Origin: a virus
Virus record (IMG/VR): IMGVR_UViG_3300042549_007551
Location: 11,791-75,790 of that record
Strand: one strand, 5' to 3'
DNA length: 64,000 nucleotides
Positions 1,896 to 11,100 of the stretch are shown here, in pieces (within the stretch, counting starts at the first letter, position 1; every line of letters begins with the position of its first letter). The notes under the pieces were generated by a model that saw only the letters and a program-made list of their open reading frames with translations, did not search any database and had not been told where the DNA came from. A program made the position numbers and the translations under genes.

Positions 1896-1907
1896 CATAA
1901 AAAGATT

Positions 1908-1928
1908 AGCCCACTTCACGGGCTTTCT
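1908..1928 (+). terminator. weak hairpin terminator
   Basis: AGCCC-acttcac-GGGCT-TTCT. Confidence 0.4.
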
Positions 1929-2037
1929 AACTAAACTCTTTATTGGGGTAGTCGGGTAAGACAATCTATAAACCTTATGGGCTAAAGATTGTAACGTGGG
2001 TTCAACTCCCACCTACTCCACCAAAGAGTTTAGTTAG
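1927..2037. repeat. 15-bp perfect inverted repeat bracketing the tRNA-like gene
   Basis: ctaactaaactcttt (1927-1941) / aaagagtttagttag (2023-2037). Confidence 0.9.
1945..2023 (+). ncRNA. tRNA-like RNA resembling the isolated tRNA-like domain (TLD) of tmRNA, with Ala identity
   Basis: Acceptor stem GGGGTAG/CTACTCC with G3-U70, discriminator A, encoded CCA; T arm GTGGG-TTCAACT-CCCAC; 9-nt stemless D region; 7-bp ACAATCT/AGATTGT stem closing an 18-nt non-anticodon loop. Confidence 0.75.
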
Positions 2038-8100: not shown

Positions 8101-11100
8101 TGTTATCCCAGATTTATTTAAGTGAATAATAAAATCTTCTAGTTCTTGTTTAGAAGATAATTTAACTTCGTCTTTGTTATTAACAATAGATACGCTGTTG
8201 TTTTTATAATTTAAAGCAGTATTTATATTAAAACCATTTATTATTTTTGACCAAGAAGCGTCATCAATTCTGTCTATTTGCAGCCAATCCTTATTCTTGC
8301 TTAGTTCTTCCCATCCTTGTCTTGAAGTTCTTAGTTGGCCTAACATTAAATCAGTGTTAGCTAATAATTGTTGTCTAATACCAGGGTGTTTTCTATAAGT
8401 ATAAGAAACAATAGCACCTGTATTTCCAGTTAAAAATTCGCTAGCTCTATTCATAGCTTTTAAGTTTATTTTAGGTAAGATAATTGTTTCTAATTTTAAT
8501 CTTGTTTCTTGATTGCTTGTTCTTATAGAGAAGTTTTTATATGTTAAGTAATTAATAACTTCATCTACCATTGGTGTGTTGGTTTCTAAACTAATTTTTT
8601 TAGCCATAGCTTCAATGTCATAAGTACCGTTTGATTTTTTAATAGAATACTTTTCAATGAAAGGAAGTAACCCGTTGTTTTGTATTTCACTAAACACTTC
8701 AATTTCGTTTCTATCTTTTTGATCTAACAATACTTTCCAATTCACACCTTGTGCTTCTAATATTGCTGAAAAGGATGGAGTTATTGGTACACCACCGATG
8801 ATGCTACCTTTAATATCCCGTTCAGCAATGGATATATTTTCTTCTTCAATCAATCTAGTTCTAACATTCATTTTTTCTGCAGTATGTTCTGCATCTAAAA
8901 TGACATATATTTCACCGCGTTGAATATCAATTCCTTTAAAGTTTAAAGTATTAATATCTCCGTTACTTAAAATATTGTTAACAATTAAATCATCTTTAAT
9001 AACATCATATATAATGTCATTCCATACTGAATGGCCATCTGATGCTTTACCAAAAATACCGTCTAATATTTTTGCGTAATCTTTAGCAGCATCTAATATG
9101 ATCTTACCTTCTCTAATTTTAAACGTATCTTTTAATTCTTTTTCTTTACTTCTTAATACACTTAAGTTGTTTTTTGTTAAACCATACTTCTTTAGTAACG
9201 CGTTATCTGCAATATTTTTATAACCATCACCTTGTAATTCATCATTAACTAAATACATTCTAACTGCGTTTAAAGTTTGTTCTAATACTGCTCCACCTGC
9301 ACCACGCTTAACTAAAGATTCTTTGTTAGCGACAATATCAACGCCAAACTTTTCTTTTAAACCAACTACATAACGTATGCCACCCTTAAAACCCCACATC
9401 CCTAACCAAGTTTTATTACCTTCATCCATTCCTACAGCTTTAGCATACTCAGCATCAATTAACAAAGCGTCTTCAAAAGCACCTGGATGATTAATAAACC
9501 CAACAATAGTATTAACACCTATCTTATGTAAGATATCTCGCTTATAAAATTGATATTGTTTTTCTGTTAAATAGTTAGGTGTAAAGATATTAATAACTTT
9601 ATCTTTACCATTCTTATCTTTATAGGTTCTTAATAATCTACTAGTAATGATTTCTTTTTCTTTTGGATCAGCGATACTATCAATAAACTTACCTAAGTTG
9701 TCTTCAATAGTTGTAGCGTTTAACTTATTTAAATCTTCGTATTCGTAATAATCATTAATAATCTTATAAGGAGTATACTCTAAATAAAGTTTATTAAACG
9801 ATAATACAATACGCCCTGGGTTTGTATTTAATGTATGAGGCATATCAACATTAAGTGCTGTTAAAGGTGGGTTAGATTTACCAGCTGAACCTTCTGCAGA
9901 TTTTTCTAAATCTAAACTTAAACGCACTACATTTTTTCTAGTCCATATAATTAAAGGACTTGTTGAGTACTGTGGATCAACTAAAAATAATAATTTTGCA
10001 GGGTCATTAGCTTTAAACTTTGATAATATTCTGTCAGCAATACCTCGGTATACCTTAACAATGTCTGAATCTTTTTCGTTACGTTTCGCGCTTTGATAAG
10101 TATCATAATATCTAAAGAATCTTTGCTTTAATACCGTTGTCATATTAATACGTTCTAATGCGCTGTCTGGTATAGCATCATCAAATACTACAGATTCTCT
10201 AAACGCTGCTATTTCCTTTGCTTTAATTGCTTTATCTGTTTCGTCTTGGGTGTATTCAAACAAACCATCTTTTTGATGTTTAGCTGCTAGTTTAATAGTT
10301 TTTTCAATACTGTTATAGCTAGCGTCTATTCCATCTTCTAAGTAAATAGCTTCTTTATTTAAACCTGAAAAACCTAACTTACGTTTTCCACTCTTATCCG
10401 TATAGTTAAAGAACTTAGTTTTTAACCAGCCTTCCATGTCTTCATTAGGCTTGGGTCTATAAACAATGTCTTTAGTTTTAACTTCTAAAATTTTACCTAC
10501 TTCAACATAAGTATATCTAAATTTAAATGTTGGCATACCACCGCCAGTAGTAAACTGATAATAGTTATATATGTTATTTTGATTATCCATATAACCAACT
10601 AAATAAAAATTATCAGATGGAGATTTAGCAAGAGCTATATCGTCCTTTACAATTAAAGCTTCTTTATCTAAACCACGATGAGCATCTTTATATACACGTT
10701 TAACATTTTTAACGCCTAGTTTGTTTATAAACGATTGCTCTTCTCTTTCAGTTGCTACTCGTTGTAAACCATCAAGACGTTCATCTGGTGTAAAGTTATT
10801 AATATTTTCTTCGTTTCCGTTTAAAACTGTAAAAATATTGCTTCTTTCAAATTCTGTTTTAATACGTTCTGTATTTCTTAAGACAGAAATAACTTCTAAA
10901 AATTTATTAGTAATAACTTCGTTATTAATTTCTGTATTGTTTTTTGGTACGCCAATCTTTAAATCATTTAAAAAACTAATGTTACTGTTTACATAGTCTA
11001 GTTCTTTTTTTAAAGCCAATGTAATAAGTGTTCTTAAATTAAACTTGTCTATGTTTTTAAGTATCTTTTTTTCTTCTTCAATAACACTTATTAATCCTCT

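What the first reader, a model, noticed from the sequence alone, without database searches (positions are those of the whole stretch)
1945..2023. Mini-tmRNA: a 79-nt gene with only the tRNA-like domain and no tag reading frame
Seen: 7-bp acceptor stem with G3-U70 and discriminator A (AlaRS identity elements), encoded CCA and a canonical T arm. There is no D stem (TCGGGTAAG running into AC, like the GAC that ends tmRNA D-loops), and a 7-bp stem closes an 18-nt loop with no valid anticodon arm. The 3' end ACGTGGGTTCAACTCCCACCTACTCCACCA closely parallels tmRNA 3' ends (E. coli ACGCGGGTTCAACTCCCGCCAGCTCCACCA). Established: tag-less tmRNAs occur in jakobid mitochondria, while the phage tmRNAs I know of are full length. 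Inference: a decoy that titrates SmpB, AlaRS or EF-Tu, blocks trans-translation, adds Ala without a degradation tag, or baits tRNA-targeting defences.
Basis: partly seen in the sequence, partly recalled or inferred. Interest (0 to 1): 0.85.

Follow-up and report, generated by a model that had tools for sequence, protein, structure and literature searches.

The report
Phage tag-less mini-tmRNA gene
This uncultured lake-water phage carries a real, conserved 79-base RNA gene that keeps only the alanine-accepting, tRNA-like end of the bacterial ribosome-rescue RNA (tmRNA); one such phage RNA (mycobacteriophage DS6A) is already published, so this is a new member of a known but barely charted kind that probably interferes with the host's rescue-and-tag system.

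Summary
At 1945-2023 (+) there is a 7-bp acceptor stem with G3:U70, discriminator A, an encoded CCA, a standard T arm and a 9-nt unpaired stretch where a D arm would be. A 7-bp stem closing an 18-nt loop replaces the anticodon arm. Across 34 distinct relatives from phage and metagenome contigs, all three helices are kept by compensatory changes, and the central arm is replaced wholesale inside a constant frame. A cloverleaf reading fails, with the anticodon stem only 32% paired. There is no tag reading frame.

ARAGORN finds nothing. Rfam scores the element about equally as tRNA (31.4 bits) and as a tmRNA with the middle deleted (30.1 bits). The published 'TLD only' tmRNA of mycobacteriophage DS6A behaves the same way (43.2 bits, also under the cut-off of 47).

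An attP remnant is very unlikely. The 5' strand is present, the phage record has no integrase, and no species genome holds the 3' end.

Earlier reports of this scan reached the same reading on sister phages.

New here:
- The gene is nested in the convergent terminator hairpin of this lineage. Three relatives have the hairpin but no gene.
- G3:U70 persists in lineages found without imposing it.

Function (alanylation, SmpB competition) is inferred, not shown.

The parts
1945..2023 (+). 79-nt tRNA-like-domain-only RNA gene (mini-tmRNA), single copy in the phage record
   Evidence: Own covariance model R1 scores it 89.9 bits, and it is the only hit in the 75.8-kb record. Rfam scores it as tRNA at 31.4 bits and as tmRNA at 30.1 bits across model positions 1-374. 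G.U pairs, including G3.U70 in 34 of 34 relatives, fix the + strand as the RNA strand.
1945..1951 (+). Acceptor stem, 5' strand (GGGGTAG), pairs with 2013-2019
   Evidence: 97.5% of cells paired across 34 distinct relatives. Pairs 5:68 and 6:67 show 4-5 pair types.
1952..1960 (+). Unpaired D-loop analogue TCGGGTAAG, with no D stem
   Evidence: GGGTAAG recurs across the family, but it was imposed by the search patterns. The D-stem alternative has no compensatory change and clashes with the central helix.
1961..1992 (+). Central arm in place of the anticodon arm: 7-bp stem (1961-1967 with 1986-1992) and 18-nt loop (1968-1985)
   Evidence: The stem sequence is wholly different in sister elements (ACAATCT/AGATTGT, ACATAT/ATATGT, TTAACCTA/TAGGTTAA) while pairing is kept. 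All 7 of 7 pairs covary. No GCN-to-stop frame lies inside it.
1993..1995 (+). Linker AAC before the T stem (AAC or GAC in nearly all members, like the GAC of tmRNA)
   Evidence: Alignments A1 and A3.
1996..2012 (+). T arm: stem GTGGG/CCCAC, loop TTCAACT
   Evidence: 98.8% paired, and 4 of 5 pairs show compensatory change.
2013..2023 (+). Acceptor stem 3' strand (CTACTCC), discriminator A (2020), encoded CCA (2021-2023)
   Evidence: The discriminator is A in 35 of 36 members. CCA is encoded in some members and absent in others.
1927..1941 (+). 5' arm of the 15-bp leader/trailer clamp (CTAACTAAACTCTTT)
   Evidence: Inverted repeat I1. The fold with flanks has z -6.2. One compensatory C-G to T-A change occurs in sister phages. 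The clamp is present only in this phage lineage.
2023..2037 (+). 3' arm of the clamp (AAAGAGTTTAGTTAG). It overlaps the terminal A of CCA.
   Evidence: Relatives without the RNA gene have a plain hairpin at this spot.
1908..1924 (.). Hairpin after the last + strand ORF (1659-1895). It is terminator-like when read on the - strand.

Best explanation
This is a functional phage gene for a tag-less 'mini-tmRNA', an RNA that keeps only the tRNA-like domain (TLD) of tmRNA.

Shown:
- It is a conserved, covarying tRNA-shaped fold. It has a 7-bp acceptor stem with G3:U70 and A73, a T arm and an ACCA end.
- It has no D stem, no anticodon arm, no tag frame and no pseudoknots.
- A short, freely replaceable hairpin stands where tmRNA carries helix 2 and the mRNA-like domain.

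Inferred:
1. It is transcribed with, or just after, the + strand replication-gene block. In this lineage it is released from a leader/trailer duplex that derives from the local terminator hairpin, then trimmed by RNase P and 3' nucleases.
2. It is charged with alanine by host AlaRS. That enzyme needs only the acceptor helix with G3:U70 (established for alanine minihelices and for tmRNA).
3. It competes with host tmRNA for SmpB and EF-Tu, and perhaps for stalled ribosomes. At most it could donate one alanine there, with no template to continue on. Host trans-translation and proteolysis tagging would therefore be damped during infection.
For: Fold and covariation.

The cloverleaf is rejected. 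The anticodon stem is 31.6% paired and the D stem has no compensatory change. ARAGORN finds nothing at default settings. At relaxed settings it gives only a mismatched tRNA-Ile(tat).

There is no tag frame in the centre.

Rfam tmRNA model:
- It matches the element end to end with the middle deleted (30.1 bits).
- It treats the published DS6A TLD-only RNA the same way (43.2 bits).
- Eleven of the 15 other family loci scanned are tmRNA-best at 21-43 bits.

Model R1, built without DS6A, finds the DS6A element full length (37.5 bits).

Several members lie inside phage tRNA gene arrays (L052, L151, L123, L077). They are therefore placed where they would be transcribed and processed like tRNAs.

G3:U70 persists where it was not imposed by the search. 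L139-type and L151 lineages keep it with a changed 4:69 pair, and a TM7 phage does too.

The identical 47-nt frame occurs in phages whose neighbouring proteins show no similarity, which indicates strong constraint or transfer.

Literature: DS6A is listed as 'TLD only', and a similar molecule strongly inhibits tmRNA, perhaps by titrating SmpB (PMC4131195, citing Mao et al. 2009; PMC11915505).
Against: - There is no expression, charging or SmpB-binding data.
- The junction motif of bacterial tmRNA (GGnUUCGAC ... GGAC, with tandem G.A pairs, which from my own knowledge matter for SmpB binding) is replaced here by UCGGGUAAG ... AAC. SmpB binding is therefore not assured.
- The Rfam tmRNA score is far under the cut-off (30.1 against 47), and the tRNA model scores as high (31.4).
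- R1 scores ordinary tRNA-Ala genes at 28-30 bits, so the sequence link to DS6A (37.5) is modest. Descent from tRNA-Ala rather than from tmRNA is not excluded.
- One member (L108) has G3-C70.
- G1-G4, GGGTAA, the T loop and TCCA were imposed by most of the search patterns.
- The 15-bp leader/trailer duplex could hinder RNase P.
- The phage encodes no SmpB, so any effect depends on the unknown host's protein.
Confidence: 0.55

Rival explanations
1. It is an anticodon-less, alanine-accepting tRNA-shaped RNA that acts outside trans-translation. It could be a decoy or sponge for a host defence or toxin that attacks tRNA acceptor ends or bodies. Alternatively the constant frame could be a handle that carries a variable central arm, which is the active, target-binding part.
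For: The central arm is swapped wholesale while the frame stays identical. Some subfamilies share arm motifs (CAAAGUU ... GUACACUA in L139- and L063-type members). CUUA occurs in the arm of 7 of 21 lineages against 2.2 expected (post hoc). The tmRNA junction motif is missing. Rfam scores tRNA and tmRNA equally.
Against: Arm sequences share nothing across most lineages. Many arms are plain hairpins of 18-30 nt, which suits a spacer better than a specific ligand. No partner gene is conserved next to the element. Only the tmRNA-interference reading has a published precedent.
Confidence: 0.22
2. It is mainly a cis-acting RNA-processing or stability element. A tRNA-like structure at the end of the + strand operon would be cut by RNase P or RNase Z to define mRNA 3' ends. 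The small RNA would be a by-product.
For: It lies 50 nt after the last + strand ORF, inside the convergent terminator hairpin, and no sigma-70-like promoter stands before it. Relatives have only a terminator there.
Against: This does not explain why G3:U70, A73 and an encoded CCA are kept. It does not explain the same frame in unrelated contexts, inside tRNA arrays and without the clamp.
Confidence: 0.1
3. It is an unusual but decoding tRNA (for example tRNA-Ile UAU, as relaxed ARAGORN proposes, or an intron-bearing tRNA) or a decayed tRNA-Ala pseudogene.
For: Rfam tRNA scores 31.4 bits, just over the cut-off of 29. Relaxed ARAGORN draws a cloverleaf. GGGU can wobble-pair with the 5' strand of the central helix in 76% of cells.
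Against: The proposed anticodon stem has 2 mismatches in 5 pairs here and is 31.6% paired across relatives. The competing 7-bp helix covaries at 7 of 7 pairs. ARAGORN with introns finds nothing at default stringency. Strict conservation and compensatory change argue against a pseudogene.
Confidence: 0.05
4. It is an attP-type remnant of a host ssrA or tRNA 3' end.
For: Its 3' 30 nt resemble ssrA and tRNA-Ala 3' ends, and real ssrA attP fragments exist in phages.
Against: The matching 5' acceptor strand and the D loop are present. All helices covary. There is no integrase in the 75.8-kb record. The 3' 25-mer occurs in none of 185,579 species genomes. True attP fragments (L113, L116, L135) have only the 3' part.
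Confidence: 0.02

Closest known systems
'TLD only' (CDS-less) tmRNA of Mycobacterium phage DS6A (JN698994: 28478-28560; tmRNA Website tmID 11587; Hudson, Lau & Williams 2014, PMC4131195; PMC11915505)
   Same: Both are phage-encoded RNAs of about 80 nt. Both have a contiguous acceptor stem with G3:U70, a T arm, no D stem, and a short hairpin where helix 2 and the mRNA-like domain would be, with no tag frame. Both match the Rfam tmRNA model end to end with the middle deleted and fall under its cut-off (43.2 and 30.1 bits). My model R1 finds both.
   Different: DS6A keeps the canonical tmRNA D loop and junction (UGGUGGUCGAC ... GCAC). The window RNA has a short UCGGGUAAG ... AAC. The host and GC content differ (69% against 47%). 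DS6A has an integrase and this record has none. Here the gene is nested in a 15-bp leader/trailer clamp.
Standard bacterial tmRNA (ssrA, Rfam RF00023) and phage full-length or two-piece tmRNAs
   Same: The tRNA-like domain architecture, the alanine identity elements, and a 3' end about 87% identical to enterobacterial ssrA 3' ends over 30 nt.
   Different: There is no resume codon, tag frame, pseudoknot or long helix 2. It is 79 nt against about 350 nt. ARAGORN does not call it. A real two-piece phage tmRNA seen in passing (L093, RF04321, 70.6 bits) shows what a complete one looks like.
CDS-less organellar tmRNAs (jakobid and oomycete mt-tmRNA, RF02544; ~65-bp plastid forms, PMC11915505)
   Same: They are tag-less, reduced to about the tRNA-like domain, and retained together with SmpB in the same cell.
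   Different: The RF02544 model gives no match even at E 10. Those are the cell's own rescue RNAs, whereas this one is a viral extra copy beside a presumably complete host tmRNA.
tRNA-Ala and alanine minihelices
   Same: G1-C72, G2-C71, G3.U70, G4-C69 and A73 are all present, as is a T arm. The Rfam tRNA model passes marginally (31.4 bits).
   Different: There is no D stem and no anticodon stem-loop, so it cannot decode.

Membership tests
tmRNA (standard, RF00023) | tRNA-like domain: 7-bp acceptor stem with G3:U70, discriminator A, CCA end, T arm, no D stem | tested here: met
   The D-stem alternative lacks compensatory change.
tmRNA (standard, RF00023) | mRNA-like domain with a resume codon and a tag reading frame ending in a stop | tested here: not met
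   No GCN-to-stop frame lies in the 35-nt centre, and 22 of 36 family members have none.
tmRNA (standard, RF00023) | Long helix 2 and pseudoknots PK1-PK4 | tested here: not met
   The centre is a single 7-bp hairpin with an 18-nt loop.
tmRNA (standard, RF00023) | Rfam gathering score (47 bits) | tested here: not met
   30.1 bits, matching model positions 1-374 with 326 positions skipped. When upstream sequence is included, only a 22.9-bit truncated match is found.
tmRNA (standard, RF00023) | Conserved D-loop and helix-2a junction (GGnUUCGAC ... GGAC) | tested here: not met
   The window has UCGGGUAAG ... AAC. Some family members (L026) do keep UCGAC ... GGAC.
tmRNA (standard, RF00023) | Binds SmpB and is alanylated | not testable with these tools
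   This needs biochemistry. The phage encodes no SmpB.
TLD-only / CDS-less tmRNA (DS6A type) | Contiguous tRNA-like domain whose two halves are joined by a short hairpin, with no tag frame, encoded by a phage | tested here: met
   The DS6A element was located and compared.
TLD-only / CDS-less tmRNA (DS6A type) | Recognised by the tmRNA model across both ends in preference to, or on a par with, the tRNA model | tested here: met
   Window: 30.1 bits (tmRNA) against 31.4 (tRNA). DS6A: 43.2 bits. Of the 15 other family loci scanned, 11 are tmRNA-best at 21-43 bits.
TLD-only / CDS-less tmRNA (DS6A type) | Inhibits host trans-translation | not testable with these tools
   Reported for a similar molecule in E. 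coli (PMC4131195, citing Mao et al. 2009). The primary paper is not held.
Canonical tRNA (RF00005) | Rfam gathering score (29 bits) | tested here: met
   31.4 bits, which is marginal. The alignment forces a wobble D stem and a 13-nt anticodon loop.
Canonical tRNA (RF00005) | 5-bp anticodon stem with a 7-nt loop, and a D stem kept by covariation | tested here: not met
   The anticodon stem is 31.6% paired. The D stem is 76% paired by wobble only, with 0 compensatory pairs. ARAGORN at default settings finds no gene, with or without introns.
mt-tmRNA (RF02544) | Match to the family model | tested here: not met
   No match at E <= 10 in the whole phage record.
attP copy of a host ssrA or tRNA 3' end | Only the 3' segment is present, it is identical to a host gene, and an integrase is in the phage | tested here: not met
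   The 5' strand is present and covaries. The 25-mer is absent from 185,579 species genomes. No PF00589 integrase is found.

The most novel reading that the evidence does not exclude
The family may not be a mere tmRNA decoy. It may be a distinct class of phage RNAs in which a constant, alanine-chargeable tRNA-like frame serves as a delivery or stability handle for a rapidly exchanged central arm. The arm would be the specific effector, for example a bait for a host defence protein or a pairing partner for a host RNA. The identical 47-nt frame carrying at least three unrelated arms in co-occurring lake phages would then reflect arm swapping under selection.
Probability: 0.15. Interest if true: 0.8.

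Novelty: new member of a known kind. Interest (0 to 1): 0.45.

Why it matters
Tag-less tmRNA look-alikes are missed by ARAGORN, the tRNA/tmRNA finder tested here, and by Rfam's tmRNA cut-off. The held literature credits them to a single phage (DS6A). This element belongs to a family of at least about 35 distinct sequences in more than 100 phage or metagenome contigs from varied samples. Some sit inside tRNA arrays, and one lies in a GenBank TM7 phage record where it is unannotated. If they do jam or short-cut SmpB-tmRNA rescue, interference with ribosome rescue would be a common phage strategy rather than a curiosity. These RNAs would also be compact natural probes or inhibitors of trans-translation. 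For this window, the nested position in a terminator hairpin and the absence of the gene from three relatives give a clean gain event to work with.

Tried and rejected
- **ARAGORN.** Default runs on the window, the whole genome and 15 related loci called none of the elements. Relaxed runs gave only a mismatched cloverleaf.
- **mt-tmRNA model RF02544.** No match.
- **Tag-frame idea.** L002-type arms read GCA GAT GCT CCT GCT TAA, but the window element has no such frame and 22 of 36 members have none. I dropped the idea.
- **attP idea.** Rejected.
- **SmpB gene in the phage.** None found.
- **blastn of the 1.1-kb region against 50,697 phage records.** No match. The 79-nt query hit only 3' ends of tRNA-Ala, tRNA-Met and ssrA fragments.
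- **Expression.** No RNA holder was listed among the sequencing runs. All holders are lake or freshwater DNA metagenomes.
- **Host tmRNA comparison.** Not possible.
- **Mao et al. 2009.** Not held, so its result is cited second-hand.
- **The look-up of encoding contigs.** Closed. Lineage relatives were reached through the search for related loci instead.
- **Leader/trailer clamp as a family feature.** Rejected. It occurs only in this phage lineage.
- **Pairing between the loop (1978-1985) and 1906-1913.** The 8-nt match is about what chance gives and does not covary.
- **Synteny with group-B phages.** Neighbouring proteins show no similarity.
- **Complex prediction and structure tools.** Not applicable to RNA.

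Full report
**What is there**

The window comes from a 75.8-kb IMG/VR phage record estimated at 77% complete, with about 30% GC. The record occurs in many lake and freshwater metagenomes.

The finding lies in a 238-nt gap between two converging gene blocks. On the + strand is a replication-type block: a Sak4-like ATPase at 390-1301 and small ORFs ending at 1895. On the - strand is a giant 8038-aa ORF at 2134-26250.

- Acceptor stem GGGGTAG/CTACTCC with G3.U70.
- Discriminator A and an encoded CCA.
- T arm GTGGG-TTCAACT-CCCAC.
- A 9-nt unpaired TCGGGTAAG.
- A 7-bp stem ACAATCT/AGATTGT closing an 18-nt loop.

The minimum-free-energy fold is this structure.

**Is it real?**

Pattern scans of viral, genome and metagenome collections, followed by a covariance model (R1) built from ten sequences, gave 56 matches. 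Of these, 34 are distinct.

Pairing across the 34 distinct sequences:

| Helix | Cells paired | Pairs with compensatory change |
|---|---|---|
| Acceptor | 97.5% | 2 of 7 |
| T stem | 98.8% | 4 of 5 |
| Central | 76% | 7 of 7 |

The covariation score is 0.464 against 0.114 in shuffles (0 of 500 reach it). Slid controls drop to about 50% paired.

The closest relatives are the most telling. The 16-nt 5' part and the 31-nt 3' part are identical, while the central stem is ACAATCT/AGATTGT, ACATAT/ATATGT or TTAACCTA/TAGGTTAA.

One caveat applies. GGGG, GGGTAA, the T loop and TCCA were written into most of the search patterns, so their invariance is partly built in. A scan that imposed nothing on the acceptor stem still found new lineages that keep G3.U70 while pair 4:69 changes. 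These are GGGCGUG/CACGUCC and GGGAUUG/CAAUUCC. One lineage has G3-C70 instead. A TM7 phage in GenBank has an unannotated 66-nt version that also keeps G3.U70. G.U pairs fix the + strand as the RNA strand.

**tRNA, tmRNA or remnant?**

- ARAGORN calls nothing in the window, the genome or the relatives. With thresholds lowered it draws a tRNA-Ile(tat) with two mismatches in the anticodon stem.
- Tested on the alignment, that anticodon stem is 31.6% paired. The D stem pairs only by wobble, has no compensatory change, and clashes with the covarying central helix.
- Rfam's tRNA model just passes (31.4 bits, cut-off 29).
- Rfam's tmRNA model matches the element from its first to its last position with the middle skipped (30.1 bits, cut-off 47).
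- The mt-tmRNA model gives nothing.
- The centre holds no GCN-to-stop frame, and most members have none.

An attP remnant is very unlikely for four reasons. The 5' strand is present and covaries. The record has no integrase. The 3' 25-mer is in none of 185,579 species genomes. Real ssrA attP fragments seen in passing carry only the 3' part.

**What is known**

Hudson, Lau and Williams list 'Mycobacterium phage DS6A (TLD only)'. They state that a similar molecule strongly inhibits tmRNA, perhaps by titrating SmpB (PMC4131195, citing Mao et al. 2009, which I could not read). The 2025 tmRNA database paper repeats this and adds CDS-less plastid and mitochondrial forms (PMC11915505).

I located the DS6A element at JN698994: 28478-28560. 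Rfam's tmRNA model matches it end to end with the middle deleted, as it does the window element, at 43.2 bits. R1, built without it, finds it at 37.5 bits. Ordinary tRNA-Ala genes reach 28-30 bits with R1, so this link is modest.

Of the 15 other family loci scanned, 11 are tmRNA-best in Rfam at 21-43 bits. Several sit inside phage tRNA arrays. One family member (L026) keeps the canonical UCGAC ... GGAC junction, bridging DS6A-like and GGGUAAG-type forms.

Earlier reports of this scan reached the same reading on sister phages and other families. I list them but rest on my own tests.

**Local context (new here)**

The gene is nested in a 15-bp leader/trailer duplex, 1927-1941 with 2023-2037. 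The 3' arm overlaps the terminal A of CCA. The duplex shows one compensatory C-G to T-A change in sister phages.

This clamp is not a family feature. Other members lack it.

Three relatives keep the same synteny but have no such RNA. They are 80%, 56% and 47% identical in the Sak4-like protein. At this spot they have only a plain hairpin. In two of them it is an obvious bidirectional terminator with a T run.

The simplest reading is a gain in this subclade, into the loop of the convergent terminator hairpin. Phages whose neighbouring proteins show no similarity carry the identical frame with another arm. This points to transfer between co-occurring phages or to very strong constraint.

**How it most likely works**

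Shown: a conserved tRNA-shaped RNA gene with alanine identity elements, no decoding arm and no tag frame.

Inferred from established knowledge: AlaRS charges any acceptor helix with G3:U70, and the tmRNA TLD with SmpB enters stalled ribosomes. On that basis the RNA is processed, alanylated, and competes with host tmRNA for SmpB and EF-Tu. Host rescue-and-tagging would be damped.

I put this at about 0.55, for four reasons. The canonical SmpB-side junction motif is replaced. Nothing is known of expression. Descent from tRNA-Ala is not excluded. The exchangeable arm may itself matter.

The rivals are an arm-borne function or defence decoy (0.22), a cis processing element (0.10), an odd tRNA or pseudogene (0.05) and attP (0.02).

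**Verdict**

This is a new member of a known but barely charted kind, of moderate interest.

Noticed in passing
window 2134-26250 (-): A single 8038-aa ORF has no cysteine at all (machine-counted) and one D.D.D match, DNDGD, at aa 6125-6129, like an RNA polymerase metal-binding loop. The protein is rich in K, L, N and I.
   Followed up: partly
L189 1465-1530 (= MG269973.1, TM7 phage DolZOral124_53_65): An unannotated 66-nt TLD-only element sits in a GenBank phage record. Its acceptor stem is GGGCUAG/CUAGUCC with G3.U70, and R1 scores it 46.7 bits.
   Followed up: partly
L052 146-2784: A phage tRNA array of about 25 tRNA genes has a mini-tmRNA (607-680) in the middle. L151, L123 and L077 also have tRNAs directly beside the element.
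   Followed up: partly
L093 543-741 (-): A complete permuted (two-piece) tmRNA lies in a 169-kb phage contig (RF04321, 70.6 bits, over its cut-off).
   Followed up: no
L017-L023 (e.g. L017 3498-3570): A different conserved RNA-like element shares GGGTAAGATCACCG and a T-loop-like GGTTCGAATCC but has no matching acceptor stem. It follows a conserved GTGGATCGTCA-GGGTGC stretch. Its identity is unknown.
   Followed up: no
central arms of family members (window 1974-1977; L003, L006, L029, L030, L050): CUUA, the complement of the D-loop UAAG, occurs in the central arm of 7 of 21 lineages against 2.2 expected from shuffles (P about 0.003). This is a post hoc test, and some occurrences lie in the stem. 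It could be a tertiary or alternative pairing.
   Followed up: partly
L139, L104, L110, L123, L086, L147, L063 central arms: A subfamily shares an internal-loop motif CAAAGUU ... AGUACACUAU around a variable inner hairpin. This suggests that the arm is not always a mere spacer.
   Followed up: no
L030 8555-8641: An unusually long (87-nt) tRNA-Ala(GGC) lies 10 nt upstream of that contig's mini-tmRNA (8651-8720).
   Followed up: no
L113, L116, L135: Enterobacterial-type ssrA 3' fragments (GGACGCGGGTTCAACTCCCGCCAGCTCCACCA without the 5' strand) occur in phage contigs. These are typical attP remnants and serve as a useful contrast to the finding.
   Followed up: no
window 1906-1913 and 1978-1985: There is an 8-nt perfect complementarity between the upstream hairpin arm (TTAGCCCA) and the loop of the element (TGGGCTAA). 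This is about what chance gives in 271 nt, and sister phages show no compensating change.
   Followed up: partly
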